Made by a program: the position numbers and the translations under genes. Source: a phage. From it: DNA of 64,000 nt. The notes beneath the pieces are model-generated. The model saw only the letters and a program-made list of their open reading frames with translations, had not been told where the DNA came from and did no database searches. The stretch lies in NCBI GenBank assembly GCA_025823825.1, contig GCA_025823825.1_4720.1; one strand, written 5' to 3'. Of the stretch, positions 11,441-61,096 are shown piece after piece (positions within the stretch are counted from its first letter, which is position 1; every line of letters begins with the position of its first letter).

Positions 11441-11507
11441 TTTAATCTCCTCTCCCGACTTCAGAGAATTCTTAAAATCCGTTAGTTTTGATAGATGAGG
11501 TAAGACG

Positions 11508-11534
11508 GCATAAAAGCCTCCCGTAATGGGAGGC
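11508..11534 (-). terminator. hairpin GCCTCCC-GTAA-GGGAGGC followed on minus strand by TTTTATGCCG
   Basis: Inverted repeat seen directly; sits just downstream of the 11548 stop. Confidence 0.55.
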
Positions 11535-11547
11535 TTCATTAATCAGC

Positions 11548-26477: not shown

Positions 26478-28052
26478 TTACAATTCAAAATCTTCATCGA
26501 TAACACGCTGGGTAAGCACTTTGTCGCTGAAGAACTCCACCTTGCGCTGATGGTATTTACGGTGCGCTTCGATAGAAGTACATACCAGATACCAGAACGT
26601 TGGCGTCATTCCTTCAAACTTTCCTTTCAGCTGACGCAGTCGTCCCAACACCTGAATGTTACCGGTTCGTGACCCCATCGCTAATGTCATGAACGTCATC
26701 ACCAAGTCAGGAAGGTCGATACCTGTACCTGCCGATTTCACCGTTGTAACGCTAATATCGTTATCCAGCAAGACCATGAAGTCTTCTTCAGCAGTATAAG
26801 GACCGATTTCTAACTCAGGGATACGTTCACTGAGATAATGCGACAACGACTTACACATATCGACGGTTGCACAATACACCAGCATCTTCATACCTTCCTG
26901 ATACTGGTTCATGAAACCCTTGATAATAACGGTATAGATGAAGTTAAAATACGCGAGTTTGAGTTGCTTGTTCTTCATGATAGACTGTTCGAATATCGTG
27001 TGCGAATAAGCTCCACCAAACCCTTTGTATCTGACTTTATCTGTACTGCGTAGTCGGTACGTTACCGCATTTACCGCAATGTATTTCTTGTATTCGCCTT
27101 TCGCATAACGGGCTTCTTTCGGATACATCAAATACAGCATCTGTTCGATAAACGGATCATCGGATACCGCTGTTGCCGACAGATAAATGATTTCCGGAAT
27201 ATTGGCGTAACACTTGACCTTAAACAAGAAATGCAATGCTTCGTGACACTCGTCATGAATCAGCAAACCTATGCCGGTCTTTTCCCAAAACTCAGCGGGA
27301 TGAAAGGCATATGGCGCAACGCAGTTATTCTTCTCGTAGTCCGCAATATAACGTTGGAACATGTTCAAGGAGAACAATGCGATTTTGAAGTCGAGTTCAC
27401 CTTGTTCAACCAAGGTTTGAAACTCCAACATACTGTAACGAGGAATGTCGGGATGCGGTGGATCCTCCTTAGCGTTCCCGCGTATCTCGATAACGTCCCC
27501 TGGTTCCATCCCGAAGAAGTTCAGCAGTGAGCTTCGCCAACCTGGCATGTATCTCGGCGACAGAATGATACCCGTCCGTACACCGCGTCGGAAGGTGATC
27601 TCCTGCGACATGGCCGTTTTTCCTGACCCCGTTTGAGCGGTGTTTAGGCTCATTCTGAAGGGGGTATCCTTACCCCCGTCCATGTACTCCAACCATTCTT
27701 GCTGATCTTGACGCCATGGAAACTTCCATTTCTTTACGAACTCCACTTCTTTACCTGGTACCGGATCGTGATAGACGATTTCCAACCACTCTTTTCGTAT
27801 CCCTCGGGAAAAGATAAAATCCAAAAACGATTTCAACTGTTCACGGAGTAAGTATACCTCGCTATAATCGCTTCTTGCCGCGGCATACGTGTTTATGGTA
27901 TCGGTAACCATTCTCCGTGTACGAGGGTCACGCCGTTTCCTCAGATGCAAACAACGGTCTCGAAGGTAATGGCCGATAAGATGGGCAAATCGAAGTCCGT
28001 ATCCGCTCAGCCTCATGCCGTGCGAGAAGACGTCGATACGAGCTAACTTCAT
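26478..28052 (-). CDS. superfamily 2 DExH-box helicase
   Basis: 524 aa; AQTGSGKT, HDECHEA, SAT, QVLGRLRQ motifs. Confidence 0.75.
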   Translation of the reverse strand: MKLARIDVFSHGMRLSGYGLRFAHLIGHYLRDRCLHLRKRRDPRTRRMVTDTINTYAAARSDYSEVYLLREQLKSFLDFIFSRGIRKEWLEIVYHDPVPGKEVEFVKKWKFPWRQDQQEWLEYMDGGKDTPFRMSLNTAQTGSGKTAMSQEITFRRGVRTGIILSPRYMPGWRSSLLNFFGMEPGDVIEIRGNAKEDPPHPDIPRYSMLEFQTLVEQGELDFKIALFSLNMFQRYIADYEKNNCVAPYAFHPAEFWEKTGIGLLIHDECHEALHFLFKVKCYANIPEIIYLSATAVSDDPFIEQMLYLMYPKEARYAKGEYKKYIAVNAVTYRLRSTDKVRYKGFGGAYSHTIFEQSIMKNKQLKLAYFNFIYTVIIKGFMNQYQEGMKMLVYCATVDMCKSLSHYLSERIPELEIGPYTAEEDFMVLLDNDISVTTVKSAGTGIDLPDLVMTFMTLAMGSRTGNIQVLGRLRQLKGKFEGMTPTFWYLVCTSIEAHRKYHQRKVEFFSDKVLTQRVIDEDFEL

Positions 28053-30055
28053 AACGTGATTACATCCTCCGGTTTAGGTTCTTTACGCGGTAACAGCATG
28101 TAGTCGATCGGATGATCCGGCTTCATGGTTGGGATATAACTGTTCGGGTTTTGGAACGCATCCAGCTGCTCTTGGTGAGCGAACTTCATACTCAAGGAGC
28201 GCATGTTCATGTTCTTCTTGAAGGTACTGAAGTATCGTGTTGTTCCCTGTTTCGGCATGCGATAATCTTTCGTGTGCGGTGAACGAATCATGCTGGCGTA
28301 GAGAATAACATCGAGATGCGAAAGGTTCATTCGCAGACGCTGGGCACACAGACGATGCCAATAGTACAGCACGTTTGCAACTTCTTCCGGTGTTGCTTCG
28401 TCTTCCGAAAGGAATCCGGCACTGAAAGAACCTTTCCCGAATTTGAATTCACGTTCGATTTCTTTTGCGTATTCCATCATGTTTTTGTGGATTAACGGCA
28501 TCTGGAATAACGTACGTGAATTGTCCCAATGTTTCAAGTCGAAAATCACAATCCCGTCAGACGTCACTTCCCAGCTATGGCGTTTAAGATAACGGATAAA
28601 CGCTTTACTCGGTACAACAGGACGTCCACAGAAATCGAAATTGACTTTGAGCTTACGATAGCTTTCATCTTTCCTGTCGTAAATCTCCATATCGCAAAGC
28701 GTCATGTTAAACAAGCGTTGCGGTATCAGCGAACTGATTTCTTCCGCTTCGGCTACGTCGTACAACATGTTCGCAAGACCTAACTTCATCTTAATCAGCA
28801 CGTGTTTACCTTTCAGCTCACGTGCGAGTTTGATGTCGTTCATGTTCTGGCTATAGCGAAGGATATGTTGATATTCCGGTGGGATTGGTGCTGTGGATAC
28901 CGTTGACGAACCATCGTGGTGTTTGGTAGAAAGAATGTTCTGCGTCACCTGTTGCGAACAGGTACGCGCTGCGCCATCGCCGACATTATCAGTCAATGCG
29001 AAGTTATGACTTAATTCACCGTAACACGTTGTACATACCCCAGCAGGATCGGGATGATGACAATAGTTAACGGAGCGCATGCGTACCGTCGTGCCGATCA
29101 ATTCTTTCATGTGTGGTTGTATCGCTACCAACGAACCGTCATCACGAATAATGAATCGACCATGGAAGCCACGCAGGTCGGTCTCGTCGCGGATTGGCAT
29201 CGGGATGGTCTCTTTACTACCACAATCACCAGGATGGAGTCGTTGTACAACCGCTGTCGCTATCTGAAGTTCACGACCGAAATATTCAGACTTTTTAATC
29301 TGCTCTTTGTTGAACAGCAACGATTTTGCCGCAGAACGACTTTCTTTCAAGCTGTCGGGAAGAGAGATCAAACCGGCTGCGTATGACCGCATTACTGGAT
29401 CACGGAATATCTCGGAGTTAATATCGGTCAAGAATCCACGCATCCCAATACACTGCAGCACCTGTCCAATCGAAACGTGTTCGGTTCTTACCGCACGTGC
29501 GATAGGGTTTGCATGTAACGTTTTATCGGTGCTCAGTACCTTTGTCAGTTTCTTGTATGCGCTTTCGATACCTTCACGGGTGGGTTCCGCTTCGGCGATG
29601 ATTTTCTTAACTTCGGGATGTACGGTAATCTGATAAAAATCGTCCGCGCAAATCGTTGTTACGTATTCCTCCAACGCATACGTAAAGAAGTTATATACGT
29701 TGTTGAACATATCGAACAGTGCTTTCCAGAGAACCTCACGATTCTCTTGTGGGTAAGCATACATGCATTGACGATACGCTGCGCTTTGCAACGCAACCGA
29801 CGAACCAGCAGTAAACTTGCGTTTATCGACCAGGTTCTCTTTTGTCAATGGTGTCTCAGGATACATGCGATGCACAGACCAGTGCATGTAACTAAAGAAA
29901 ATGCGTCGCGCACGCAATTCATGAACGCCATCGTCCATCTCGATATATACACGGTCATTAGGCTGTGCCCACTCGAACACCTCATCAACCGGCCAATGCA
30001 TAAGCTCGCGTGCCCTCACACGACGTTTCGTGGTGGTCGTCTGTGTTATAGTCAT
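28049..30055 (-). CDS. RNA polymerase beta'-like subunit, C-terminal portion
   Basis: 668 aa; VLQCIGMRGFL...YAAGL...GDCGS resembles bacterial beta' region F/G (QLAGMRGLM...FREGL...DDCGT); compared from memory. Confidence 0.6.
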   Translation of the reverse strand: MTITQTTTTKRRVRARELMHWPVDEVFEWAQPNDRVYIEMDDGVHELRARRIFFSYMHWSVHRMYPETPLTKENLVDKRKFTAGSSVALQSAAYRQCMYAYPQENREVLWKALFDMFNNVYNFFTYALEEYVTTICADDFYQITVHPEVKKIIAEAEPTREGIESAYKKLTKVLSTDKTLHANPIARAVRTEHVSIGQVLQCIGMRGFLTDINSEIFRDPVMRSYAAGLISLPDSLKESRSAAKSLLFNKEQIKKSEYFGRELQIATAVVQRLHPGDCGSKETIPMPIRDETDLRGFHGRFIIRDDGSLVAIQPHMKELIGTTVRMRSVNYCHHPDPAGVCTTCYGELSHNFALTDNVGDGAARTCSQQVTQNILSTKHHDGSSTVSTAPIPPEYQHILRYSQNMNDIKLARELKGKHVLIKMKLGLANMLYDVAEAEEISSLIPQRLFNMTLCDMEIYDRKDESYRKLKVNFDFCGRPVVPSKAFIRYLKRHSWEVTSDGIVIFDLKHWDNSRTLFQMPLIHKNMMEYAKEIEREFKFGKGSFSAGFLSEDEATPEEVANVLYYWHRLCAQRLRMNLSHLDVILYASMIRSPHTKDYRMPKQGTTRYFSTFKKNMNMRSLSMKFAHQEQLDAFQNPNSYIPTMKPDHPIDYMLLPRKEPKPEDVITL

Positions 30056-32118: not shown

Positions 32119-34287
32119 TTAGCTTTCGCAGTCATCTGCGTCGATGATTTGTCCGCCAGCAACGTTCAGTTGATGATACAGAATCCTCAACGCACGGTTG
32201 CCGCCAATGGGATATTTCTCGAAGTTGGTTGCAATAGGAATCGCTGACGGTTTATCGGTCGCATAGATGCTTTCGGTGATGCTATCCACCTGTTTTGGAT
32301 TGTTCGCATAATCCATAAAGACGCTTGCGAACCATCCGCCAGCAAAGGCGGTAACCTCACGATGTTCAGATTCGCCACAGTAACGAGTCGGTTGCTCTTT
32401 ACCCGGAGAACTGTATTTATCGCTATTACTGAGTTTCGACGGTAATCCGTGCGCTTGCAATTTAGGGATACCCACCGCTGACCAATCGTTCGCCGTCTTC
32501 TCCAACATCATGATGTACGTGTCACCGATCGCAATATCGTTCTTGGTTGTCCGCCATTGCCCGGAACGCCCACGGTATCGTACAGGACCTTTCTTCAACG
32601 GGAACTCACGAATCAGATTCTCCATACGTTCTGAACCTGCTGCGATACTGTCCGTCGGGATATAAACTTCCGTACCGTGGCGTTGTACGTACCGTAAATG
32701 ATCCCATTTATCCTCATCCGTGATACAGTATTTTTCAACAACCTGTTCCACGAACTCAGGACTGACGATATAGTAGTAGCGCATCAGTGTGTTCCAAGCG
32801 GTCTCCAGATCGCCTGCATCCATCACCGGTTTCAGTTCACGCATGATCTGATCACCAACGCCGTTGATGTAAGGTGCGTTAACACGACTTAAACTCATCC
32901 TTTTGATTACCGTACTATCGTCGAACATGAAGTCCGCAACGTTACCCCATTGGTCGACCGGCATTTCATCGTCTTCCATGATGTCGGTTACGACGAATTT
33001 ATCACCCGCCATACCGGTGAATTTAAACCCGATACCTGGAACAACGTCGTACGTGTACGTGATGGTCACACGCCAATCATCGAGATTCTCTTTACGGTAA
33101 TCGCGGGTTGGTAATACATGACGTAGCTGTCCGTTGGGATTGCGGATATCAATACCATGTTCAGCATCAGCCAGGTTCAACCACCACATCACCGTTTGAT
33201 GATGACGTATCGGCGTACCAACGCGTTCACGTTCGTACTTACGAACAGCATCCTGAATTCGGGTGTAAAGCAAACCAATCGCGTTCTCGTATTTCAGGAA
33301 TTGACGATACGGAGGACGCATCTTCTCTTCCATCATAATCGCACGCTCGCGGGCTTGACGTCCAGAACGACGATGTCGGTCGCTGACAACATCGATATCC
33401 GTTACACGCGCATTCGGTTCCGCGTAAGTGAGATCATCGTAAACATAATCCACACGCTGAAGGTTACACGTCATCATGTCAACAACGCTGAGGATAGGAT
33501 CGATTTCGCGTGTTGCTGCAAGTAACCCATCCTTACGAATACGCTCACCATTCTCGGGTATTGCTTGGTATACCTCGTCATCGCCGTAGAGATTGATTGG
33601 GTATCGTGATTTACCTGATGTGATCGTCCGCTTCTCAATGCCGGTACTGGTGAAATGCTTCAATACACCACGACGGGCAACACCACCATCCTCGATACAC
33701 TGATAGAAGCTACCGAAACACACCTTGCAATCGCGACCGTAACCCCACTCGCGTGTTTCTTGATTGATCGCTGGGCTTTCCATCAAACGAGAATATCGCG
33801 GTACGATCTGGCCTCGACGGAGGGAATGGAACAAGTTGGTTGGTCGAAAACGGAAACCGTACTGCTGATGCATGATGTGATGCTCAGGCACTTCAAGCAA
33901 GCGTAGTTCGTGGCGGTTACCATCCTCTTGGTTTTCGTACAGCACGTAATGCATCGTGTTTGTTTTGATGCTGTTTGCTGTATGCCCCGGTTGGAAACGT
34001 GGGATGATATCTATGATGCGAGATTCAACTGGAAACTCTACTGACCAAGTGTTCTGTCCGTACTGGTATTCGATCCCCGTCGTCAGTCGGGACGGTTTCG
34101 CATCTTTGATAACCAACGCTTGGCTAAGATGTCCGCCAAACATCGCAGCGCGCTGTGCTGAGTTATAATGCAATAGCCCGTTAAGTCCAGTCCCTACGCC
34201 AGTATACTCCTGTTTAATGGGAATGATTTTACCTTCAGCGATTGCCTGCTTCACAGATTCATAAAGAGGTTTTTCTTTATAATGCAT
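32119..34287 (-). CDS. RNA polymerase beta-like subunit, C-terminal portion
   Basis: AGDKFVV..EDDEMPVDQWGNVADFMF..RMSLSRV and GESEHREVTAFAGGW resemble bacterial beta GDKMAGRHGNKG...EDMPYDENG and GEMEVWALEAYGA; start at ATG 34287 with AGGAAG upstream. Confidence 0.65.
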   Translation of the reverse strand: MHYKEKPLYESVKQAIAEGKIIPIKQEYTGVGTGLNGLLHYNSAQRAAMFGGHLSQALVIKDAKPSRLTTGIEYQYGQNTWSVEFPVESRIIDIIPRFQPGHTANSIKTNTMHYVLYENQEDGNRHELRLLEVPEHHIMHQQYGFRFRPTNLFHSLRRGQIVPRYSRLMESPAINQETREWGYGRDCKVCFGSFYQCIEDGGVARRGVLKHFTSTGIEKRTITSGKSRYPINLYGDDEVYQAIPENGERIRKDGLLAATREIDPILSVVDMMTCNLQRVDYVYDDLTYAEPNARVTDIDVVSDRHRRSGRQARERAIMMEEKMRPPYRQFLKYENAIGLLYTRIQDAVRKYERERVGTPIRHHQTVMWWLNLADAEHGIDIRNPNGQLRHVLPTRDYRKENLDDWRVTITYTYDVVPGIGFKFTGMAGDKFVVTDIMEDDEMPVDQWGNVADFMFDDSTVIKRMSLSRVNAPYINGVGDQIMRELKPVMDAGDLETAWNTLMRYYYIVSPEFVEQVVEKYCITDEDKWDHLRYVQRHGTEVYIPTDSIAAGSERMENLIREFPLKKGPVRYRGRSGQWRTTKNDIAIGDTYIMMLEKTANDWSAVGIPKLQAHGLPSKLSNSDKYSSPGKEQPTRYCGESEHREVTAFAGGWFASVFMDYANNPKQVDSITESIYATDKPSAIPIATNFEKYPIGGNRALRILYHQLNVAGGQIIDADDCES

Positions 34288-34318
34288 AGGACTTCCTATT
34301 ATCGAATTGAGGTACGTC

Positions 34319-34672
34319 ATGTCTAACACGCCCCTGAACGACTTTCTTAAGACAAACCCCGATGACCTCATCCACGATCTTGATTTCAGGAACGTTGTTG
34401 AGATGCATCTGGAATATTTCAAAAATGCCGGACTGGTCTCTACGATAGACATACCACCCGAACGTGCCTACGAATTCGATGGTAACTTTTATGGATTGTG
34501 TCGTGTTCTGCTCGGCGAGGGTAGCGAACCAATGCACTGGATAACCATGAGACTCAATGGTTATCGTGACCCTACGGAATACACCGCCGATGTTCTAACC
34601 ATGAAGATTGTCGATACAAGCGCAATCAACACATTAAAACAACAGTACCGCACAATCCACTACAGCGCTTAA
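34319..34672 (+). CDS. hypothetical protein (isolated plus-strand gene)
   Basis: 117 aa from ATG 34319 with GAGG upstream; divergent from beta gene. Confidence 0.5.
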   Translation: MSNTPLNDFLKTNPDDLIHDLDFRNVVEMHLEYFKNAGLVSTIDIPPERAYEFDGNFYGLCRVLLGEGSEPMHWITMRLNGYRDPTEYTADVLTMKIVDTSAINTLKQQYRTIHYSA

Positions 34673-46144: not shown

Positions 46145-46378
46145 TTAGCAATGGTTGTTAGTTGCTTCTATTTCGTCAAGATAAGGTTCTACGTCATCGC
46201 CCTCCACGAATTCGTTGAACCAGCAGTCAATGGTAGAAATAACCGGTGACTGGTGTTCACATTTCTTAGATACCTTAAAAGGTACGTTATTATCCATCAT
46301 ACCGAGTTCGGGTCGAAAACGCCCGAAATGTTTCGCAGTCCAAATGTCTGGGACGATATGGTTGTTCATCGTAGCGTT
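46145..46378 (-). CDS. RNA polymerase beta' N-terminal subunit, proposed exon 4
   Basis: NATMNNHIVPD...PELGMMDNNVPF aligns to bacterial beta' QMAVHVPL...ALMMSTNNILSP just after DFDGD. Confidence 0.55.
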   Translation of the reverse strand, partial: NATMNNHIVPDIWTAKHFGRFRPELGMMDNNVPFKVSKKCEHQSPVISTIDCWFNEFVEGDDVEPYLDEIEATNNHC

Positions 46379-46727
46379 CAGCATGAGTCGCTACCTCATG
46401 CCCGCAGCTTTACCTGCAGCTTCCGGTGTTACCGGAATGTCCAGAATACATCTTATCCATATTCCAAATGGAACGTAGGACTTCCGCGCTGGATCTCGCT
46501 TGAGACCACGTATTCGTTGAACGTTCTCCTGAACGGAGCTTCGCTGCTGATCGAACATTGTCATGTACGGTAGGCGTCCCCGAAGGGATTGTCATTGAAG
46601 CCGCGTACATCCGCTACCTTGTTTCTACCTTATCGGTTCCTCTTACGAGGCGTAGCGGCCTTAGCCCTTCCCAGCAATTCACGGAATCCAAGCTCTTCCT
46701 TTCGGAAGGCAGGGCCTATGATTAAGC
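46379..46727 (-). ncRNA. group I intron C (ORF-less), boundaries approximate
   Basis: Minus-strand P/Q/R/S-like elements AATTGCTGGGAAG, GATCAGCAGC, GTTCAACGAATA, AAGATGTATTCT; ends in G before exon 4. Confidence 0.5.
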
Positions 46728-46737
46728 ATCCCCGTCG
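46728..46737 (-). CDS. proposed 10-nt micro-exon 3 (C GAC GGG GAT, completes F and encodes DGD)
   Basis: Inferred from frame restoration, not observed. Confidence 0.4.
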
Positions 46738-47113
46738 CTGTTATCGACTATATCTTCATCCTCGTTGCGAGGAGTCTCCCGTTTTGGTCTGTGTTTAACA
46801 GAGCCTACTCTACTCGACATCGCGTCTTTCGATAGTCTGTGAGCACACATCTTAACGAACATTCGTGGATTCCTAAACAGGTGAACGTTCTTGTTGAGAT
46901 GCTTCGCTGCGGATTATTCCCGTCCTACCTCTTTTACCCTACCCAGTTCATTACGCTGGCCCTCATCTGTGTCACCACGATGAGTTGGTGTGTAGTCCGA
47001 TTACAGAAACTTCCCGTCAATTAGAGAGTTTTAACTACGTTCCTGTTACCAGAAACCAGATCCCGACGGTATCAATAAATCAACGTAAGTTATTGATTTA
47101 ATTGAAAAAACTG
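46738..47113 (-). ncRNA. group I intron B (ORF-less), boundaries approximate
   Basis: Minus-strand AATTGACGGGAAG (P), AATCCGCAGC (Q), GCTCACAGACTATCG (R), AAGATATAGTCG (S) in canonical order; GGTAGGGTAAAAG P5-like. Confidence 0.6.
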
Positions 47114-47126
47114 AAATCTGCATTAT
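47114..47126 (-). CDS. proposed 13-nt micro-exon 2 (AT AAT GCA GAT TT, completes Y and encodes NAD)
   Basis: Joining exon 1 ...AAA GGG T to this gives MILKG-YNADF; preceded by G, ends in U. Confidence 0.4.
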
Positions 47127-47492
47127 CTTAATCTTCAGTATGGTTCGCTACTCCATACCCGTACGTCATGTACTGCTTACGTCTTTCACGTAAGAAGAGA
47201 CTATATCTTTCACCCTCAGCATTATCTGGTCGGGGCTCCCATTTCGGCGGTCAGATGACCGGTGGTTTCCCACGCCGCTTGGCCCTAACGCCCGTAAGCG
47301 ATAGTCGTTGAGCGCATCTCCGTTCTGGAGACTTCGCTGCGGATTCCCCAATCCTTGCCGCTTTTACCATACCTGAATGATTAGTTCAGCCCCACGCTCT
47401 GTTCCCAGGCGTGGTTGGTGGACAAGGCTCTAAGTAGGTTCCCGCATTAGAGAGTTCTGCGTGACAACATTTCTGCGTTACTGGGCCTAACG
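47127..47492 (-). ncRNA. group I intron A (ORF-less), boundaries approximate
   Basis: Minus-strand TAATGCGGGAACC (P), AATCCGCAGC (Q), GCTCAACGACTATCG (R), AAGATATAGTC (S); GGTATGGTAAAAGCG P5-like; GCCC near 5' end can pair with exon GGGU. Confidence 0.6.
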
Positions 47493-48735
47493 ACCCTTTC
47501 AAGATCATCACGCTTAACCCGATGGTGTTATCCTGCGGATCGCGTTTAACCTTGGTGATTTCAAGACATTGGTTACTGCTTCGGTCAAGTGATGGGTTTC
47601 GAACAAAGCCACACACAATCCCATCGAACGGTGTATCAGCAATAAGCTCATCGTGCAGCTCGCTCATCATTGGATGATAATTACGGACATGTTCCGCAAC
47701 GAACGCACGTGCTGCTCTCGGTGAATAACCACGATGGAATAACTTGGATTGGATATGTTCTTTATTGGTTAAAGTAAATGGTGCGTATGGGAAATGCAGA
47801 TGATAATAACGATGGTTCGCTGTTATCGAACTGATTACGGTACGCGTGGTGAATGGATGTAATGTACCTAATATGTTTTTACGTGTGATACCTTTCTTCT
47901 TACCAATGAACTCATCGAAAATTGCTGCGTGGTATTGCAGTAGCTTCAATTGCACTTTCGCCATCCAGTTTTCTTTCTTTCTGGCGCTCAAAGGTGTTGT
48001 TGGGTGATAGATACTGTTCAACGTACCAATAGCATCGATCGCACCTTCCATTTTGCTATCTGCATAACGACCGGTTGGCGTATTCTCGATAACGAACATC
48101 ATGGCCGCAGGAAAGCTGATATACTGGCTGAAGAACTTATCACGATGGATACGGATGAATTCTCGTAGCGTGTCAACTTTCTCCGTGTTCTTCGGTCCAC
48201 GTAACGTAGGTCCTTTATACAAGATCTCCATTATGCGATCGAAGTTCTGTATAAAGCTATTTACGCCGCGACGTATCCCGAATACATCGAATTGCTGCTC
48301 CAGATAGTTCTTGAGTTCGATGGGTCGTTTTACATTTGGACGGTAACTGGCATCAATGAGCCACGTCATCGTTTCAAAGCTTTTGATATTCAACTCGCTT
48401 GCCAGCACGAGATGGACCAACGGGTTAATGAACGCATCAATTCCTTCAGGAACACGCGCCCAAACCGTCGAACGAATCTCCTGTTCTGCCGGGTAGGTCA
48501 CGACCGTTTTACAGTTTGGACACACCGTGCCGAGTAGCTCACCACGATTGTAGAAACCACAACCACATTGTGGTGTGATATCCAACGTATCGCTGGAGTA
48601 AACACGGGTGATAAAACTGTTTAATTTCTTCTTCTCTTCGACGACTTTTGTATCGTAATCATTCAACAAAATCGGCGTAAAAGGAAGTTCTGCGAGCTGT
48701 CTATCGAAACTCACGATATCGAGCATGATGGCCAT
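47493..48735 (-). CDS. RNA polymerase beta' N-terminal subunit, exon 1
   Basis: Zinc ribbon CGCG...CPNC, GRYADS, KNILGTLHPFTTRTVIS, RNPSLDRSSNQ in beta' order; ORF ends just before DFDGD would be expected; 35-aa ORF tail is intron read-through. Confidence 0.65.
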
Positions 48736-48827: not shown

Positions 48828-50723
48828 TTAGAACAGGTTGAATGCCCCACCCATGTTGTTAACGCCAACATTCGGACGATCGCTACGTGCGTAGATGTTA
48901 CCGGAGATGTTACCCAGACCACGAGCACGTGCTGCCATGTTACCACGAACAGCGGTACCTGCCAGATGCTGGATGTTCTCAGGACGGATGGTGAAGCCAG
49001 CATCAGCAGCAGCTTCGATCAGCGCCTGCAGTGCTAACGGATCGAAGTCGTAACGCATTGCCCAGCCGGTTTGTTCCCAGCTACCAGACAGAACACGATC
49101 GATGATTTCGTGACGAGCGACAACACGCTGAGACATCGTCATATCGGTACGGTCGAAGCTGTCTTCCCAAGCTTCTACGGTATCCGGGTTAGTGATGTTC
49201 ATCATGTACAGATCGTCCATATCACGAATATCGTGACGGTGACCATCCTGGTGGTTGTAGTGACCCAGCGGGATACGGTTACCGGTAGCGTAGACCAGCG
49301 GTAAGCCGTATTGATATTTCTTGCTGAAGCAACCCAGGGTAACATCATCGAAGGCACGGTAGAGTGCTTTGTAACCTTCAGAGACTTCCCGAACATCAGC
49401 CTCAACATTACCCGTATAGATCTTCTCAGCCGCCGGGATCATACGCAGCAGCCAGCTGTATTCGCCTTCTTCCGGTACGTCGATAGAAATCAGCAGGGAC
49501 GGATACAGTACCTGTTGCAGGAACTTGTAAATCTGCTCATTGGTTTGAGTAGACAGATCCAGCGGTGCGGTAACTTCCGGATCCAGCACCATCGCCAGAG
49601 CACCCGGGTTATGCGGACCGATACCACGAGCAGCGTTGCTGATTAAAGACTGCGCCCATGCCATGCCGCTGTTCAGCGTAGCGATGGTGCCAATCAGACC
49701 CAACACGAAAGTGTTCGGTGTGAACGCATCCAGCTCCAGCGGGTAAGCGCTGGTCATCACGTAACGCGGCTGGTATTGTACAGTCGGCGGTACCGGATAA
49801 CCGTTAACCAGAACAGGGCCTTGGTTGAAGGTCGGGTTCTGCGGGCTGTAAGTCAGGTCAATGTAACCGGTGGTGGCGACCAGACGCTGTTGACTATCGT
49901 AATCGCTCATCGCTTGACGGATGCGGTTAGAGATAGTTACAGTGATGTCAGAACGCACAGGGTTACCAACAATATCGCTGTCCTGCATACCGCTGGTGTT
50001 GTACTGAACGCTGCTGATTGGCTGATCGCTTGCCATCATGCCCAGGTTGAACTGCGGCAGACCCAGTTTATCACCGAGACGGATTTCGATTGCGGTCTGG
50101 ATTGCGTTATCTGCAGCAGACAGCAGGGTGGTCGCCAGATGCGCAGATTCAGCGGTGATTTCATTGGTCACCACAGCCAGACCAGCGATACGAGCAGTAC
50201 CATTAGACTTACCGCCAATAGCTGCATACATTGCCGCCATGACTTCGTTGATGAACGTACCGTTCAGGTTATCAACCCAGGTACGCGGTACCAGAATGTT
50301 ACCATGCGGACCTTGTTCTTCACGACGCGGCAGCGGAGCCAAACCGGCAACCAGCGGAAGCACATAACCGAAGAAGTGGTTATGATCACCAACTTTTGCA
50401 CCACTCATAACGACCAGGGTCGGATACGGTACGCTGTACTGGTTCGGGTCAACCGCAACAAAGATGAAGTCGTCTTTGAACTGGGTATCTTCCAGATATT
50501 TCTCCATCAGACGACGGAGATTCAGTACCTGCTCGGAGCCGGTATTACGGCTGATACGACGGCTCAGTGTACGGTTGATCGTACGCATCGTATGAGTTAC
50601 TTTAGGACGGTCGGCAAAATCTGCAGCGGTTTCCAGCGCCTCATCAGCACGTTGTGCGGTGCGGGTTTCAGCTGCACGAATTTCTACATTATCGTTACCG
50701 TTATTACGTACGTCTAAGCCCAT
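48828..50723 (-). CDS. abundant early protein, candidate phage-nucleus shell protein (chimallin-like); alternative structural protein not excluded
   Basis: 631 aa, strong AGAGGA RBS, promoter motif copy 4 upstream, hairpin downstream; product is inference from context and length. Confidence 0.4.
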   Translation of the reverse strand: MGLDVRNNGNDNVEIRAAETRTAQRADEALETAADFADRPKVTHTMRTINRTLSRRISRNTGSEQVLNLRRLMEKYLEDTQFKDDFIFVAVDPNQYSVPYPTLVVMSGAKVGDHNHFFGYVLPLVAGLAPLPRREEQGPHGNILVPRTWVDNLNGTFINEVMAAMYAAIGGKSNGTARIAGLAVVTNEITAESAHLATTLLSAADNAIQTAIEIRLGDKLGLPQFNLGMMASDQPISSVQYNTSGMQDSDIVGNPVRSDITVTISNRIRQAMSDYDSQQRLVATTGYIDLTYSPQNPTFNQGPVLVNGYPVPPTVQYQPRYVMTSAYPLELDAFTPNTFVLGLIGTIATLNSGMAWAQSLISNAARGIGPHNPGALAMVLDPEVTAPLDLSTQTNEQIYKFLQQVLYPSLLISIDVPEEGEYSWLLRMIPAAEKIYTGNVEADVREVSEGYKALYRAFDDVTLGCFSKKYQYGLPLVYATGNRIPLGHYNHQDGHRHDIRDMDDLYMMNITNPDTVEAWEDSFDRTDMTMSQRVVARHEIIDRVLSGSWEQTGWAMRYDFDPLALQALIEAAADAGFTIRPENIQHLAGTAVRGNMAARARGLGNISGNIYARSDRPNVGVNNMGGAFNLF

Positions 50724-52138: not shown

Positions 52139-54292
52139 TTATTCTGCGGTTTCTTGCTTCGGTAAATAACTTGCTGCAATGTCTTGGGCTAACAATGTAT
52201 TGTTTTTATTCGAGATGAAAATACCGTAACTTTCCATTAACGCGTAATACGAACGAACGAGCGTAGAGATCAATCGACGAATATCCATACCTTGAATAAA
52301 GATATCAGGAAGCCCGGAGGCTTCGATCACCGGTAATGGTATCGTTAAGTTGCTTATCGTTTTCTTATCGTTACGTACAATCCAATCACGGAAACGTTGT
52401 TGTAACCCTTTATCCTCCCATGAATCAATCCAATCGTTAAGAAGCGTTTTGTTCTTCGTCGCCAACGGCACACGCACCCCAACATAGGGCGGTTCGGGGC
52501 AATGACCGTACGATTGAGCAAACACCTCTTCCCACATATCGTAAGACTGTTTCGTTACTGCAACATGCGGCTTCACTTTAACACGCGTTAAGAAATCGGG
52601 ATCACCACGTTTCATTGACTCAACGATTTCGTTTTCTAACGAGATAATATCATCAAGAACCAATCGAATGCTGATCTTCTCATTACGTAACAGCTTATCC
52701 ATGATACCACACATCATGCGTTCAACACGTTTGACGATCATTTTTGGTGCTGACGCGTCACGCATAACCGGACCTTTCAATTCCAGCTTCGGTGGATTGA
52801 TAGGAACCCCTTCACGCATGGTCATGTACCCGTAATAGTTTTTACCCATCGAGGTTAACGACAGAATCAAGAACATATATTCGTTCTTCATTTCCATTAC
52901 GTACATATGCTCTTTCGCTACACCGATATTACCAGAACACATCGCCATCAGATGAACCGTAATCTGCGTAACCAGATAGATAAGCGTATTTGCTAAGCGC
53001 GTCGAAATTGGATTGATCTCCATATTTCCAAATCGCCACTGAACCCACTCCTGGCAGGTAAACACCGTCGAGTCGGTATCAGACAACACACCCACTTCAC
53101 GGATTGCTGATGGGAAAGCATAAACGCCAGCCGGTTGGTTCTCGGTACGCCAGAACGCCATAATCAAATCTGCGTAGCTTTGAATACGCTGTAACATCAA
53201 TTTTGTCGTTGCTGCAGTAAGACGATAACCAAGTTCATTTCCTTTTTCTAGCGCTACGTAAATCGCTTCCCCGTTCAAGAACTCCGTGCATTGTGCTGTA
53301 ATCCAAGCGACCGTGTTGTTATCCATGGAAGCAATAATGGCTTTAGCCTCTTCCATCGTTTCAACAGGTTCGGCTGCCAGTTCACATAACGAGTCAAGAA
53401 AATCTCGAACAAATTCAGGATTAAGCTCACGTAACGAGTACAGGTTATTGCTGTACATGTAGCAGGCGCGTTCCAGTGGGGTTAAACCGGTAATTAACTC
53501 CCGGATAGTCAGTTCTTTCTCCGGGTCGAAAGTATATCGATGCAAACATTTCGATACGTTAGCCCAAACCTCTTCCGGCGTAGGGTAATGCAGTTTGTAT
53601 TTTACCATTACCTGTTCAATGGCGTTACGATCGCTGTTGCGGACAATACTTACGATGTTTTCAATTGCAATATCACAATCGTAATAATGGAAATTGCCCG
53701 CAAGGAAACGTTCGTTGTTCGCATTGGCTGAACCTGAGGCACAGCGACACGTTGTCGTTAAACTTGGATGCGCGATCGGATTATAAAAAGGGTTAAACTT
53801 GGACGCCTGGGTTCCTGACAAACTGTTATTATCTAACTTGGTGTTGGTCTGTCGTTTATCGTGTAACTCAGCTTCATCTTTACGTCCGTGTGCTTGTGCT
53901 ATCGACATTTGTTTCTTTTGTTTCTTACGCAACTTACCGTTTTCAACCGCAAAGTCGCTTAGCACACTGGAACGTGTTTCACGTGGATAACAGTTAGCCC
54001 ATACCGGCGTGATAATTAAATTATTTTCTTTAATATCATTGAAGTATTGGCTGAACTTGATGACTTCTTTTTCTCGATTTCCTTCGGTACGCTGTGTTAA
54101 TACAAGACAGTCGGGATCAACCATCCCGTATTTTCCACCGGGACGAACCGTATCAAGGACAAACTGCAACGCTTCCTGCTGTGATATCCCACGCATGCGC
54201 ATTAAGAACAGGGTATAATCCTGTACCGCTTCTTTGGTCATATCCAACGTACGACCATATCCGTTTTCATCGTAAAAGAACGGATTTTCCAT
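52139..54292 (-). CDS. large hypothetical protein with SDTDS and KNYYGY motifs
   Basis: 717 aa; GGAGG before ATG; motifs loosely recall polymerase motif C / KxY but no convincing motif A. Confidence 0.55.
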   Translation of the reverse strand: MENPFFYDENGYGRTLDMTKEAVQDYTLFLMRMRGISQQEALQFVLDTVRPGGKYGMVDPDCLVLTQRTEGNREKEVIKFSQYFNDIKENNLIITPVWANCYPRETRSSVLSDFAVENGKLRKKQKKQMSIAQAHGRKDEAELHDKRQTNTKLDNNSLSGTQASKFNPFYNPIAHPSLTTTCRCASGSANANNERFLAGNFHYYDCDIAIENIVSIVRNSDRNAIEQVMVKYKLHYPTPEEVWANVSKCLHRYTFDPEKELTIRELITGLTPLERACYMYSNNLYSLRELNPEFVRDFLDSLCELAAEPVETMEEAKAIIASMDNNTVAWITAQCTEFLNGEAIYVALEKGNELGYRLTAATTKLMLQRIQSYADLIMAFWRTENQPAGVYAFPSAIREVGVLSDTDSTVFTCQEWVQWRFGNMEINPISTRLANTLIYLVTQITVHLMAMCSGNIGVAKEHMYVMEMKNEYMFLILSLTSMGKNYYGYMTMREGVPINPPKLELKGPVMRDASAPKMIVKRVERMMCGIMDKLLRNEKISIRLVLDDIISLENEIVESMKRGDPDFLTRVKVKPHVAVTKQSYDMWEEVFAQSYGHCPEPPYVGVRVPLATKNKTLLNDWIDSWEDKGLQQRFRDWIVRNDKKTISNLTIPLPVIEASGLPDIFIQGMDIRRLISTLVRSYYALMESYGIFISNKNNTLLAQDIAASYLPKQETAE

Positions 54293-57977: not shown

Positions 57978-58068
57978 ACTCTTTTCCTAAGTCCCCATTG
58001 TTTATACACACGATATCTGGGAATAGTTAAAATATACGGCGTAAAACGAAGCAGGAGAGTTTCTGACG

Positions 58069-58389
58069 TCATTTTCTCCCTCTTCGAATACCACCGATAC
58101 CTCTTTCGTCTAAGACGTCCCAAGCACGCTTTATTTCATCCTCCGTTGCTCTGGTATCTGAAGGGACAACCATAACACAGTCGTGGAATGGCCAATGTGT
58201 AGGTCTGGGGTCAGCGAACAAATCATCCCATTCAAATGTCCATTCTTTCTTTGAGCGGTTGTAGTAGAGCGTAAGATACGTATTGGTGTATGCTGGATAA
58301 CCGTGCATAACCTCAATATTCTTACGATCCAGCCGTTCCTGATTCCAATCGTTAAACCGCTTTCTTATTTTCTCCCACCATTTTCCCAT
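58069..58389 (-). CDS. hypothetical protein
   Basis: 106 aa; AGGAGAAAGC before ATG. Confidence 0.45.
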   Translation of the reverse strand: MGKWWEKIRKRFNDWNQERLDRKNIEVMHGYPAYTNTYLTLYYNRSKKEWTFEWDDLFADPRPTHWPFHDCVMVVPSDTRATEDEIKRAWDVLDERGIGGIRRGRK

Positions 58390-58405
58390 GCTTTCTCCTA
58401 CGCGG

Positions 58406-58433
58406 CATAAAAGCCTGCCCCGAAGGACAGGCT
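58406..58433 (-). terminator. hairpin AGCCTG...CAGGCT followed on minus strand by TTTTATGCCG
   Basis: Inverted repeat seen directly. Confidence 0.5.
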
Positions 58434-58442
58434 CGATAGAAC

Positions 58443-58643
58443 TTAATAACCATCCAATTTCAATGAAGGATGGTTGACGATATGTGCGTGTTTTGCTGGG
58501 TCATATAGCTGATATGGAAAATAGCCATGCCATTGACGACCTTGGCATTTCGTACACAAGAACTGACCAACACCTTGTCGATTCTCGTAAGCGAGTTCGG
58601 TACTATCAACATGACCGCAACGTTCGCAAATAAACAGCGACAT
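58443..58643 (-). CDS. small zinc-ribbon protein
   Basis: 66 aa; CERCGH...CTKCQG. Confidence 0.4.
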   Translation of the reverse strand: MSLFICERCGHVDSTELAYENRQGVGQFLCTKCQGRQWHGYFPYQLYDPAKHAHIVNHPSLKLDGY

Positions 58644-58681
58644 AGCGCATCCCCATTCACTTGAACTTTTTTGGTTCGGTG

Positions 58682-59662
58682 TTAGAAAAGCAAGAAACCG
58701 CTGTTCTTCGCTTCTGCTACAGTTTCATCACCAACTTTCGGTGCTTGTTGACGTGCGTTACGATGTTCGATGTAACGTTTCGCTTCGTCAGCGATTTGTT
58801 TGATAATACCCCCTAAACGATCGGTACTTAAAACAAACGACGTCGCTTCACGAATCGGACTGCTTTCAGGCACAAAACCATCACAGCTGTAAATAGCGCT
58901 AACACCCATGACTTTTGTCGCGTCTTTCGGATAAAGCGTACAGAAAGCAATCGGGCTATCGTTCTCTTTCGTCCAATCGTATCCCATGAACGTATTCAGT
59001 TCGGTAATCGTTGGTTCCAAACCGGTAACACGTGGATGGTTTAAGAAGTTTTCCAGGTCGGCGCTGTCAAGACGGCGGTTCTCGCCAGAAAACAGAACAC
59101 AAAGCTGGCTAATAACAACCTGGACGTCCAGGTTGACATCCTGCTCCGATTTCCCATTTTCGCCATTCATGTGATAGCTAACAATCACCGGACGTTTCAA
59201 TCCTTCTGCAGCTGCCATCAGTCCTTTAAAGGTACGATCGGCGTTGATCGTTTGACGCTCATCATCGAACGAGGCAACGATGCAACATACCACACGTTCA
59301 CCACGTTCCAGCAGGTTAGCAACCAACGCAGGACCGGCAACAGAACCTGAACCACCGCTCAAACTAAAGACCACGATATTAAATTTACCTGGCGTATGCT
59401 TATTGAGAATACCTGGGATTTGCGAGCAGATCAGTTCAGCGTTCTCGTCGCGCTTCTTACCAGAACCGTCTAACTCACGACCGGCCGCATCTTTAAAGAT
59501 GTAAATATGATCGTCGTCCAGTGTGCTATCGCGTAGGTTAGCGCGGCTGGTATCAACATACGTCATGCTGTGTAATCCTTTCGCGACTTCGCCTTCAAAT
59601 GCTGAGCCGATTTCGCCACCACAACCACCGACAGCCCAAATATGTACTTGGTTCTCTTGCAT
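58682..59662 (-). CDS. phuZ: tubulin/FtsZ-like GTPase (PhuZ-like phage tubulin)
   Basis: 326 aa; VGGCGGEIG and SLSGGSGSVAGPA glycine-rich GTP-binding loops. Confidence 0.7.
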   Translation of the reverse strand: MQENQVHIWAVGGCGGEIGSAFEGEVAKGLHSMTYVDTSRANLRDSTLDDDHIYIFKDAAGRELDGSGKKRDENAELICSQIPGILNKHTPGKFNIVVFSLSGGSGSVAGPALVANLLERGERVVCCIVASFDDERQTINADRTFKGLMAAAEGLKRPVIVSYHMNGENGKSEQDVNLDVQVVISQLCVLFSGENRRLDSADLENFLNHPRVTGLEPTITELNTFMGYDWTKENDSPIAFCTLYPKDATKVMGVSAIYSCDGFVPESSPIREATSFVLSTDRLGGIIKQIADEAKRYIEHRNARQQAPKVGDETVAEAKNSGFLLF

Positions 59663-59726
59663 GTGAACTCCTAACTTAATATGTATTTAACGCACAATGA
59701 ATCTTTCTTTGCTAAAGGGGTGACCC

Positions 59727-60569
59727 ATGGGTGCTATTGACTACAGTGTAGATCGTATCTGTCGTACAATACCGGCAGATATCCTACAGTATTGCTATAT
59801 CGATCGTTACGACTGGCGTAATCGCTATCCTCGTTCCGTAGAAGACATCATTACCGATTGGGTAATCCGTAAACGGGTTATCGGTGACATCGATATCTAC
59901 GGGGGACTACAAACCGTTATTCCCCTTGACGATGCAGGTGTCACTATCGAAGAAGTCACCATTAACTGTTATGTTTTCCATATTCCGTTGGAAGCCACGC
60001 AGGGACGTTACATCACGTCCGCATTATCCATTATCTCAGGAAGCGTGAACAACTACGGAATAAACTATAACGGTCAATGGGGCGCTTTCAACCAAACCCA
60101 GTTTCAACGTCAGCTTTGTGGGTGGAACCCTGCAAGCAACACGTTACAGCAAGGGATGAACGCGTTCGGTCCCATGAACGTTCTTAGTACAGCCAACGTC
60201 GACATCATCGCCCCTAACACCATCATGGTGAACAACGTCACGCCTGTACAATTTCCCCTGAGCCTACGCTGTTTCCTTGCCCACGATCCAGAACTCACCA
60301 ACCTCAGCATGGAGGTTTGGAACGACTTCTACAAACTCTGTTTATACGCCACACAAAGTGACATCTACAACAGAACCGTTATCCGTCTCGATAGAGGTGT
60401 TACAGCACAAGGACAAGAAGTCGGTGCATTCAAGGAATACATCGATCGCTTTGCTGATGCTGAAAACACGTACCAAGAATTCCTGAACGAAACGTGGGCG
60501 GGCGTTGCTGCCTGGAACGATCCACAAACTAAACGTCGTGCTATTCGACTACAAACCGGTTACTTCTGA
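59727..60569 (+). CDS. hypothetical protein (plus-strand gene)
   Basis: 280 aa from ATG 59727. Confidence 0.55.
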   Translation: MGAIDYSVDRICRTIPADILQYCYIDRYDWRNRYPRSVEDIITDWVIRKRVIGDIDIYGGLQTVIPLDDAGVTIEEVTINCYVFHIPLEATQGRYITSALSIISGSVNNYGINYNGQWGAFNQTQFQRQLCGWNPASNTLQQGMNAFGPMNVLSTANVDIIAPNTIMVNNVTPVQFPLSLRCFLAHDPELTNLSMEVWNDFYKLCLYATQSDIYNRTVIRLDRGVTAQGQEVGAFKEYIDRFADAENTYQEFLNETWAGVAAWNDPQTKRRAIRLQTGYF

Positions 60570-61096
60570 TTAACGACAGCTTCCTCCCTCGGTGTTTTCG
60601 AGGGAGGTATTTGCCGTTTGAAGACTTTCAGTACGTTCGCAAATTCAGCAGCAATAATACAGGCCGAGGTTGATAGCTTATTACTGAAAATGAGATCGTC
60701 CGGTAAACAATCGAACTGAATACCGTATTGCGTCTTTGTCTCATCAACGATCAATGACGGTGTCGATCTTGTCTTCGCGATGTCGGTGATATACAAACGT
60801 AAAAATAATTCACCGTCTTCGCTATCCATAAAACGATAGGCGTTACCAGAAAACGCAACACATGGCGTAACGATAAATTGAACACGATCGTCGGTCGGAT
60901 GGATATTTAACCAACGTTCGATATCACTGCTACTCACATTTTGCATATTTACTACGGTAAAAGCAAATAGCGTATCATGATGTTTGGAATAATGCAGCAC
61001 ATACGCCGCACCTTTCTTTTTGTGAATCCCTTCAATGTATTCTATTGTCGTATAGCCGGATTTATATAGCTTTGCTTTCGGTTTCTCACTCATCAT
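60560..61096 (-). CDS. hypothetical protein
   Basis: Start moved to ATG 61096 (ATGA overlap); C-terminal residues encoded through the hairpin. Confidence 0.45.
   Translation of the reverse strand: MMSEKPKAKLYKSGYTTIEYIEGIHKKKGAAYVLHYSKHHDTLFAFTVVNMQNVSSSDIERWLNIHPTDDRVQFIVTPCVAFSGNAYRFMDSEDGELFLRLYITDIAKTRSTPSLIVDETKTQYGIQFDCLPDDLIFSNKLSTSACIIAAEFANVLKVFKRQIPPSKTPREEAVVNQK
60583..60613 (+). terminator. hairpin CCTCCCTCG...GAGGGAGG followed by TATTTGCCG
   Basis: Inverted repeat after the plus-gene stop; overlaps the 3' end of the convergent minus gene. Confidence 0.5.

What the first reader, a model, noticed from the sequence alone, without database searches (positions are those of the whole stretch)
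58682..59662. PhuZ-like tubulin encoded near the RNAP genes
Glycine-rich loops VGGCGGEIG and SLSGGSGSVAGPA match the tubulin/FtsZ GTP-binding signature in a 326-aa protein. This supports a nucleus-forming jumbo-phage lifestyle for the window.
Basis: partly seen in the sequence, partly recalled or inferred. Interest (0 to 1): 0.4.

Follow-up and report, generated by a model that had tools for sequence, protein, structure and literature searches.

The report
Goslar-type phage tubulin PhuZ gene

Summary
The 326-aa ORF at 58682-59662 (- strand) exists, and both glycine-rich motifs are present. It is PhuZ, the tubulin/FtsZ-family GTPase of nucleus-forming jumbo phages (Chimalliviridae). Evidence: a full-length match to PHROG 4733 'tubulin PhuZ' (E 2.4e-68); 324/326 identity to Goslar PhuZ, solved as PDB 9pm9/9pmk; and homology to phiKZ and 201phi2-1 PhuZ structures. 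An AlphaFold model (pLDDT 85.8) finds 9pm9 first (TM 0.90), then phiKZ TubZ, PhuZ201, CetZ, TubZ and FtsZ. The T1 loop, the T4 loop and the T7 aspartates D199/D202 are conserved. D202 is the residue whose D202A mutant stopped vortex formation and most nucleus rotation in Goslar. The whole window is collinear with Goslar at 92-98% nucleotide identity. It carries chimallin 8 kb away, DNA polymerase and three phage RNAP beta/beta' genes, so the nucleus-forming lifestyle is supported. The gene is under strong purifying selection (25 synonymous to 2 non-synonymous changes against Goslar). Verdict: already known, low interest. Side observation: the RNAP beta' gene in this window appears to be split by three group-I-type introns around the catalytic NADFDGD motif. 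One is absent from Goslar, and Goslar's intron HNH endonuclease is missing here.

The parts
58682..59662 (-). phuZ coding sequence (326 aa plus stop), a tubulin/FtsZ-family GTPase
   Evidence: ORF. PHROG 4733 'tubulin PhuZ' E 2.4e-68 over residues 1-323. PDB 9pm9 E 4e-219. 99.4% identity to Goslar HOV27_gp234 'tubulin PhuZ'. The AF2 model finds 9pm9 first on Foldseek, TM 0.90.
59668..59672 (-). Shine-Dalgarno AGGAG, 5 nt upstream of the ATG
   Evidence: Read directly from the sequence.
59606..59632 (-). Codons for residues 11-19, VGGCGGEIG: T1 loop (G12-G13-x-G15), phosphate binding
   Evidence: G12/G13/G15 are invariant or nearly invariant in 24 family members and G12/G13 are invariant against phiKZ, Phabio and Erwinia PhuZ.
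59327..59365 (-). Codons for residues 100-112, SLSGGSGSVAGPA: T4 loop, the PhuZ variant of the tubulin signature
   Evidence: G103 and G104 are invariant; S105, G106 and S107 are at least 90% conserved.
59057..59071 (-). Codons for residues 198-202, LDSAD: T7 loop with catalytic aspartates D199 and D202
   Evidence: D199 and D202 are invariant in both alignments. They align to RLDVHDV of PhuZ 201phi2-1. D202A in Goslar PhuZ abolished the vortex and most rotation (PMC9891218).
58685..58744 (-). Codons for residues 307-326: flexible C-terminal tail ending in G-F-L-L-F, after the long last helix
   Evidence: G322 is at least 90% conserved, with a hydrophobic terminus across the family. pLDDT falls to 46-58 here and a long helix spans 281-306. 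A role in inter-subunit contact is inferred from PhuZ 201phi2-1 literature (own knowledge: Kraemer 2012, Zehr 2014).
58443..58643 (-). 66-aa CxxC...CxxC zinc-ribbon gene 38 bp downstream of phuZ, probably co-transcribed; function unknown
   Evidence: ORF. Weak Pfam Zn_ribbon_Elf1 hit, E 9e-4, below cut-off. The same position after phuZ is kept in a relative whose PhuZ is 56% identical, with 57% identity between the small proteins. It is not next to phuZ in Erwinia phage pEa_SNUABM_54.
58409..58434 (-). Intrinsic-terminator-like hairpin plus U-run closing the phuZ / zinc-ribbon unit
   Evidence: 10-bp stem, -18 kcal/mol, z -2.76. Goslar has an annotated terminator at the same place. The simple scanner did not list it because the T-run is only 4 long.
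59727..60569 (+). Divergently transcribed DUF7484 gene (context), conserved across chimalliviruses and often adjacent to phuZ
   Evidence: Pfam PF24302 E 1.4e-87. Found in 249 phage records, including genera without PhuZ. It is adjacent to or within 2-3 kb of phuZ in Agricanvirus, phiKZ-like, Serratia/Klebsiella and Pectobacterium phages.
48828..50723 (-). Chimallin (nuclear shell protein), the context that defines the nucleus-forming lifestyle
   Evidence: PHROG 4795 E 1.1e-51. Pfam Chimallin_Phikzvirus E 2.1e-25. Goslar gp246 is annotated 'nuclear shell protein'.

Best explanation
This is phuZ, the tubulin-like cytoskeletal GTPase of a Goslar-type nucleus-forming jumbo phage of enterobacteria. 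The monomers bind GTP through the T1-T6 loops of the N-terminal domain. They polymerise head to tail, so that the T7 loop (D199/D202) of one subunit completes the GTPase site of the next. GTP hydrolysis makes the filaments dynamic. The C-terminal tail probably contacts neighbouring subunits. In Goslar the filaments form a vortex-like array around the chimallin-shelled phage nucleus and push against the cell envelope to rotate the nucleus, which is thought to spread capsids over its surface for DNA packaging. Shown here: identity, fold, conserved catalytic residues, purifying selection and chimallivirus context. Taken from published work on the 99.4% identical Goslar protein: filament and vortex formation, and the dependence of rotation on D202. 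Inferred: the tail contact and the capsid-distribution benefit.
For: The match to PHROG 'tubulin PhuZ' is full-length, E 2.4e-68. PDB matches are 9pm9/9pmk at E 4e-219, phiKZ PhuZ 3zbp at 1e-29 and PhuZ201 3r4v at 5.6e-15. The window region is 96.9% identical in DNA to Goslar, where the gene is annotated 'tubulin PhuZ', and the protein is 99.4% identical, differing only at D49G and D229E. The AF2 model with a 24-sequence alignment has pLDDT 85.8 and pTM 0.86. Foldseek against the PDB ranks 9pm9 'PhuZ Tubulin from phage Goslar' first (TM 0.90), then 3zbq (0.82), 3r4v/3rb8 (about 0.8), then CetZ, TubZ and FtsZ. G12, G13, G103, G104, N140, D199 and D202 are invariant. Against Goslar there are 25 synonymous and 2 non-synonymous codon changes, and 38 of 40 polymorphic sites across 8 alleles are at third codon positions. 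Chimallin, the split RNAP genes and the DNA polymerase lie in the same window. Function in Goslar: GFP-PhuZ vortex, and D202A dominant-negative loss of rotation (PMC9891218; review PMC12908238).
Against: Nothing substantive. The Pfam Tubulin score is 30.4 bits, below the gathering cut-off of 33. The strict PROSITE tubulin signature is not matched. A single-sequence AF2 run gave an uninformative model with pLDDT 39. No experiment has been done on this exact allele (D49, D229). Six of the eight alleles used for the polymorphism count were retrieved by exact protein identity, so only the comparison with Goslar is an unbiased dN/dS estimate.
Confidence: 0.96

Rival explanations
1. A TubZ-type (type III) DNA-segregation motor that partitions a plasmid-like or prophage replicon through a TubR adaptor bound to a centromere, as in Bacillus pXO1/pBtoxis or Clostridium phage c-st.
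For: TubZ structures (3v3t, 2xka, 2xkb) are structural neighbours at TM 0.56-0.65. The phiKZ homologue was originally deposited under the name TubZ.
Against: PhuZ structures match much better, with TM 0.8-0.9 and E 1e-22 to 1e-56 against about 1e-10 to 1e-12 for TubZ. No TubR-like winged-helix gene flanks the gene: the neighbours are a zinc-ribbon protein, DUF7484 and proteins with no family hit. The genome is a lytic chimallivirus, and published imaging shows that the Goslar filaments act on the phage nucleus. Centromere-like repeats were not searched for.
Confidence: 0.02
2. An FtsZ mimic that interferes with or substitutes for host cell division rather than acting on the phage nucleus.
For: It has the FtsZ fold, with TM about 0.55-0.62 to many FtsZ structures.
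Against: Identity to FtsZ is only 11-16%. Sequence searches recover only phage PhuZ-type proteins. Whether FtsZ's C-terminal peptide for FtsA/ZipA binding is present was not examined. Published localisation places the protein around the phage nucleus.
Confidence: 0.01
3. A decaying or catalytically dead tubulin remnant, given that PhuZ is an accessory gene repeatedly lost in Chimalliviridae.
For: PhuZ is non-essential and absent from about one third of the family (PMC12908238; PMC12768965).
Against: The ORF is intact and all nucleotide-binding and T7 residues are conserved. dN/dS against Goslar is about 0.02 (25 synonymous and 2 non-synonymous changes over about 219 synonymous and 759 non-synonymous sites). 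The exact protein recurs in 38 blocks of the public collection, on contigs that differ in DNA by 2-3%.
Confidence: 0.01

Closest known systems
PhuZ of Escherichia phage vB_EcoM_Goslar (gp201 in Birkholz et al. 2022; RefSeq HOV27_gp234; PDB 9pm9/9pmk)
   Same: 324/326 residues are identical, the length is the same, and so are the flanking genes (DUF7484 upstream and divergent, zinc-ribbon gene and terminator downstream). The catalytic D202 is the same.
   Different: Two substitutions (D49 here against G, D229 here against E) lie outside the conserved loops, and there are 25 silent changes. The host genome differs from Goslar by 2-8% in DNA and by several gene-sized indels.
PhuZ/TubZ of Pseudomonas phage phiKZ (gp39; PDB 3zbp, 3zbq)
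   Same: Same family and fold: E 1e-29, TM 0.78-0.82, 26-28% identity. The T1, T4 and T7 residues are shared.
   Different: phiKZ-like PhuZ builds a bipolar spindle that centres the nucleus, whereas Goslar-type PhuZ builds a vortex and does not position the nucleus (PMC9891218, PMC12908238). The C-terminal tail sequence differs.
PhuZ of Pseudomonas phage 201phi2-1 (gp59; PDB 3r4v, 3rb8, 3j5v)
   Same: Homologous over residues 65-294 (E 5.6e-15) with TM about 0.8. RLDxxD of T7 aligns.
   Different: About 23-27% identity. Its three-stranded filament held by an acidic C-terminal 'knuckle' is documented for 201phi2-1 (own knowledge: Zehr 2014). The tail here is less acidic (DETVAEAKNSGFLLF), and the filament architecture of this allele was not examined.
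Bacterial/archaeal FtsZ, CetZ and plasmid TubZ
   Same: Common tubulin/FtsZ GTPase fold (Foldseek probability 1.0, TM 0.55-0.71).
   Different: 11-16% identity, with different partners and cellular roles. The Pfam Tubulin score here is below the gathering threshold.

Membership tests
Tubulin/FtsZ superfamily | Two-domain tubulin/FtsZ fold (Rossmann-like GTPase domain, core helix H7, C-terminal domain) | tested here: met
   AF2 model pLDDT 85.8. All of the top 50 Foldseek PDB hits are PhuZ, TubZ, CetZ or FtsZ, with probability 1.0.
Tubulin/FtsZ superfamily | T1 loop GGxG and T4 glycine-rich signature loop that bind the nucleotide phosphates | tested here: met
   G12-G13-C-G15 and G103-G104-S-G106-S107 are present and conserved.
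Tubulin/FtsZ superfamily | Strict PROSITE tubulin signature [SAG]-G-G-T-G-[SA]-G (pattern recalled from own knowledge) | tested here: not met
   The regex finds no match. The loop reads S-G-G-S-G-S-V, the variant shared by PhuZ proteins. This is a pattern-level miss, not a structural one.
Tubulin/FtsZ superfamily | Pfam PF00091 (Tubulin) at or above the gathering score | tested here: not met
   30.4 bits against a cut-off of 33, E 5.7e-7, residues 9-151. Relatives at 33-60% identity do carry precomputed PF00091 hits.
Tubulin/FtsZ superfamily | T7 (synergy) loop acidic residues that activate GTP hydrolysis in the neighbouring subunit | tested here: met
   D199 and D202 are invariant and align with the T7 DxxD of PhuZ201. 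D202A has a phenotype in Goslar.
PhuZ (chimallivirus phage tubulin) | Full-length sequence homology to characterised PhuZ proteins | tested here: met
   PHROG 4733 E 2.4e-68 over profile positions 1-321 of 323. PDB 9pm9, 3zbp and 3r4v. 173 jumbo-phage records hit by tblastn.
PhuZ (chimallivirus phage tubulin) | Encoded in a chimallin-encoding jumbo phage genome with split multisubunit RNAP genes | tested here: met
   Chimallin at 48828-50723; RNAP beta/beta' genes at 28049-30055, 32119-34452 and 46145-48735. The window is collinear with Goslar.
PhuZ (chimallivirus phage tubulin) | Extended C-terminal tail after the last long helix, used for filament contacts | tested here: inconclusive
   A tail of about 20 residues with a conserved G322 and a hydrophobic end is present, and it is disordered in the monomer model. 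Its contact role cannot be tested here, and it is less acidic than the tail of PhuZ201.
PhuZ (chimallivirus phage tubulin) | GTP-dependent dynamic filaments that position or rotate the phage nucleus | not testable with these tools
   Shown experimentally for the 99.4% identical Goslar protein (PMC9891218), not for this allele.
TubZ type III partition system | Adjacent TubR DNA-binding adaptor and tubC centromere repeats | tested here: not met
   The neighbours are a zinc-ribbon protein, DUF7484 and proteins with no family hit, and no TubR-like family was found. Centromere repeats were not specifically searched for.

The most novel reading that the evidence does not exclude
The 66-aa zinc-ribbon protein encoded 38 bp downstream of phuZ may be a PhuZ-associated factor, for example a nucleator, anchor or regulator. 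It appears to share phuZ's transcription unit, and it keeps that position in a relative whose PhuZ is only 56% identical. Such a factor could help explain why Goslar-type phages build a vortex rather than the bipolar spindle of phiKZ-like phages. The review PMC12908238 states that the factors controlling that difference are unknown.
Probability: 0.05. Interest if true: 0.5.

Novelty: already known. Interest (0 to 1): 0.08.

Why it matters
It confirms that the window comes from a Goslarvirus-type nucleus-forming jumbo phage. This lineage was recently shown to be widespread in enterobacterial genome assemblies. It also shows that PhuZ is held almost invariant across the lineage. Beyond correct annotation it adds nothing new about phage tubulins: the function, the catalytic mutant and the structure have all been published for a protein that differs at two residues.

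Tried and rejected
- **Single-sequence AlphaFold.** It gave pLDDT 39 and was discarded as uninformative. It was repeated with a 24-sequence alignment.
- **Source paper for PDB 9pm9/9pmk.** Literature searches found nothing relevant, so the filament architecture of that entry was not used.
- **Rfam at gathering thresholds.** Nothing was found across the whole window. The group I intron hits appear only with E-value thresholds.
- **Sigma-70 promoter and terminator scan of 58000-60700.** It gave no more sites than shuffled sequence and missed the real hairpin terminator. No promoter is claimed.
- **DUF7484 as a PhuZ-specific partner.** Rejected, because DUF7484 is also present in genera reported to lack PhuZ, such as Seoulvirus and Erskinevirus (PMC12768965).
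- **Zinc-ribbon protein linked to PhuZ outside the Goslar clade.** Not supported. In Erwinia phage pEa_SNUABM_54 its homologue lies about 70 kb from the DUF7484 locus, which is next to or near phuZ in other chimalliviruses; phuZ itself was not located in that genome.
- **Contigs carrying the identical protein.** None is identical to the window in DNA; the best is 98.35%. The exact source genome was therefore not identified.

Full report
**Observation.** It runs from an ATG at 59662 to a stop at 58682-58684 on the - strand and encodes 326 aa. An AGGAG ribosome-binding site sits 5 nt upstream of the ATG. VGGCGGEIG occupies residues 11-19 and SLSGGSGSVAGPA residues 100-112. Among 125 stop-to-stop frames of at least 100 aa in the window, only this one contains the relaxed tubulin T4 pattern GG[TSA]G[ST].

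**Identity.**
- Pfam gives a Tubulin/FtsZ GTPase-domain hit at E 5.7e-7. At 30.4 bits it is just under the gathering score of 33.
- The phage-specific PHROG 4733 'tubulin PhuZ' matches end to end at E 2.4e-68.
- Against PDB sequences the best match is 9pm9/9pmk (E 4e-219), followed by phiKZ gp39 (3zbp/3zbq, 1e-29) and PhuZ of 201phi2-1 (3r4v/3rb8/3j5v, about 6e-15).
- Window 58000-60700 is 96.9% identical in DNA to Escherichia phage vB_EcoM_Goslar, where the gene is annotated 'tubulin PhuZ' (HOV27_gp234).
- The protein is 99.4% identical to the Goslar protein. The two differences are D49 (G in Goslar) and D229 (E in Goslar).
- tblastn finds homologues in 173 phage records, all at less than 60% identity apart from the two Goslar records. 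Every listed record is over 200 kb, and the hosts are Pseudomonas, Erwinia, Serratia, Klebsiella, Ralstonia, Vibrio and Aeromonas.

**Fold.**
- A single-sequence AlphaFold run was uninformative (pLDDT 39).
- With a 24-sequence alignment of database homologues the model reached pLDDT 85.8 and pTM 0.86.
- Foldseek against the PDB returned 9pm9, 'PhuZ Tubulin from phage Goslar (locally refined monomer)', first at TM 0.90. Next came phiKZ TubZ (0.78-0.82) and PhuZ-GDP of 201phi2-1 (0.79-0.81). CetZ, c-st TubZ and dozens of FtsZ chains followed at TM 0.53-0.71.
- The tubulin/FtsZ fold is therefore confirmed.

**Functional residues.** Two alignments were used: six PhuZ proteins and 24 database relatives.
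- In the 24-sequence alignment the invariant positions are D37-T38-S39, N42, G66, G68, R71 (the DGSGKxR loop), G103, G104 (T4), N140, Y163, N166, D199 and D202.
- G12 and G13 (T1) are invariant in the six-protein alignment and at least 90% conserved in the larger one, as are G15, S105, G106 and S107.
- D199/D202 align with the T7 DxxD of PhuZ201.
- D202 is the residue mutated by Birkholz et al. PhuZ(D202A) formed hyper-stable filaments, failed to form the vortex, and cut the fraction of rotating nuclei to 29% (PMC9891218).
- After a long terminal helix (281-306) the model ends in a low-confidence tail. The last residues of that tail, G322 followed by hydrophobic residues, are conserved across the family.

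**Selection and distribution.**
- Against Goslar the gene shows 25 synonymous and 2 non-synonymous codon differences. With about 219 synonymous and 759 non-synonymous sites, dN/dS is about 0.02.
- The exact protein occurs in 38 blocks of the public collection. These include contigs of 236-244 kb in NCBI assemblies GCA_961210045.1 and GCA_009290805.1.
- Those contigs differ from the window by 1.6-3% in DNA around the gene.
- This agrees with the recent report that Goslarvirus expanded from 1 to 237 genomes found in E. coli, Shigella and Salmonella assemblies (PMC12768965).

**Context.** The whole window is collinear with Goslar 123.5-186 kb at 92-98% identity.
- It encodes chimallin at 48828-50723 (PHROG E 1e-51; Pfam Chimallin_Phikzvirus E 2e-25).
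- It encodes a divergent DNA polymerase at 52139-54292.
- It encodes three phage RNAP beta/beta' genes, at 28049-30055, 32119-34452 and 48735 downward.
- 'Near the RNAP genes' is therefore loosely true, with the nearest about 10 kb away. Chimallin 8 kb away is the better lifestyle marker.
- phuZ is followed 38 bp downstream by a 66-aa CxxC...CxxC zinc-ribbon gene (58443-58643), and then by a strong hairpin plus U-run (58409-58434, -18 kcal/mol). Goslar has an annotated terminator at that position. The two genes probably form one transcription unit.
- Upstream and divergent lies a DUF7484 gene (59727-60569).

**Mechanism.**
- Shown here: identity, fold, residues, purifying selection and context.
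- Established for the near-identical Goslar protein: GTP-dependent polymerisation into filaments that wrap the phage nucleus as a vortex, push against the envelope and rotate the nucleus. Positioning of the nucleus is not affected.
- Inferred: the tail-mediated subunit contacts, and the benefit for capsid distribution and packaging.

**Rivals.** A TubZ-type partition motor, an FtsZ mimic and a decaying remnant are each contradicted. The evidence against them is the ranking of structural neighbours, the absence of TubR-like neighbours, the published localisation and the purifying selection.

**Verdict.** Interest is low.

**Side observations.**
- *RNAP beta' gene split by three group-I-type introns.* The gene downstream of chimallin appears to be split around the catalytic NADFDGD motif.
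  - Comparison with Goslar shows a precise 366-nt insertion at 47492-47127 on the - strand. It scores as Intron_gpI at 32 bits, E 7.6e-6.
  - Goslar's annotated intron corresponds to 47113-46738 (46.9 bits). Here it lacks the 1065-nt segment that carries Goslar's HNH endonuclease.
  - A third 343-nt element (46724-46382, weak partial Rfam hit) separates a 13-nt exon from the ORF that Goslar annotates as hypothetical gp185.
  - Every 5' exon ends in U and every intron ends in G.
  - Joining the four exons gives a 1506-nt, 501-aa ORF reading ...GYNADFDGDALN.... It aligns to the uninterrupted homologues of phages Eowyn (E 5e-101) and RAY through to their C-termini.
  - Intron-borne HNH endonucleases in chimallivirus RNAP genes are known from PhiPA3 (PMC12908238). 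This clustered arrangement was not found in the literature searched.
- *Genes absent from Goslar.* The window carries a Dam-like D12 methyltransferase (1871-2698), a 132-aa ORF (7595-7993) and a DUF7448 protein (10559-11539).
- *DUF7484 next to phuZ.* The divergent DUF7484-phuZ arrangement recurs across several chimallivirus genera.

Noticed in passing
window 46145-48735 (- strand): The phage RNAP beta' gene (Goslar gp247 homologue) appears to be split by three group-I-type introns clustered at the catalytic NADFDGD motif. Proposed structure: exon 1 48735-47493, intron A 47492-47127, exon 2 47126-47114 (13 nt), intron B 47113-46738, exon 3 46737-46725 (13 nt), intron C 46724-46382, exon 4 46381-46145. 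Splicing restores ...GYNADFDGDALN... and a 501-aa protein that aligns full-length to intron-less homologues. All Rfam scores are below the gathering cut-off, and splicing has not been tested.
   Followed up: partly
window 46738-46741 and 47127-47492, compared with L002 47218-48282: Intron content differs from Goslar. Goslar's intron-borne HNH endonuclease (gp186, a 1065-nt segment) is cleanly absent here, while intron A (366 nt) is present here and absent from Goslar. This looks like mobile-intron presence/absence polymorphism within Goslarvirus.
   Followed up: partly
L001 / NC_048170.1 gp185 (record 167622-167861) = window 46145-46384: Goslar's 'hypothetical protein' gp185 looks like the last exon of the RNAP beta' subunit, so the RefSeq annotation of gp247 (ending ...NADFSFFN*) reads into an intron.
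   Followed up: partly
window 1871-2698 (- strand): A 275-aa Dam-like D12-class N6-adenine DNA methyltransferase (Pfam PF02086, E 2e-60) lies in a segment that has no counterpart in Goslar.
   Followed up: partly
window 7595-7993 and 10559-11539 (- strand): Two more genes absent from the Goslar reference: a 132-aa ORF with no family hit and a 326-aa protein with a C-terminal DUF7448 domain (E 2e-24).
   Followed up: partly
window 59727-60569 (+), and phage records: The DUF7484 gene divergent from phuZ is found in 249 phage records, including genera without PhuZ. It lies adjacent to or within 2-3 kb of phuZ in Goslar-like, Agricanvirus, phiKZ-like, Pectobacterium and Serratia/Klebsiella phages. 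Its function is unknown.
   Followed up: partly
window 58443-58643 (- strand); L015 6992-7186: A 66-aa zinc-ribbon protein lies directly downstream of phuZ and is conserved at 57% identity in the same position in a metagenomic relative whose PhuZ is 56% identical. Weak homologues occur in Xanthomonas, Erwinia and Pseudomonas jumbo phages, and in the one record compared (Erwinia pEa_SNUABM_54) the homologue lies far from the phuZ neighbourhood.
   Followed up: partly
P0002, P0003 (L015, 127-kb contig from SRR24234330): PhuZ proteins at 60% and 56% identity fill the gap between Goslar and all other known PhuZ proteins (35% identity or less). This indicates undescribed Goslar-related chimallivirus lineages in metagenomes.
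   Followed up: no
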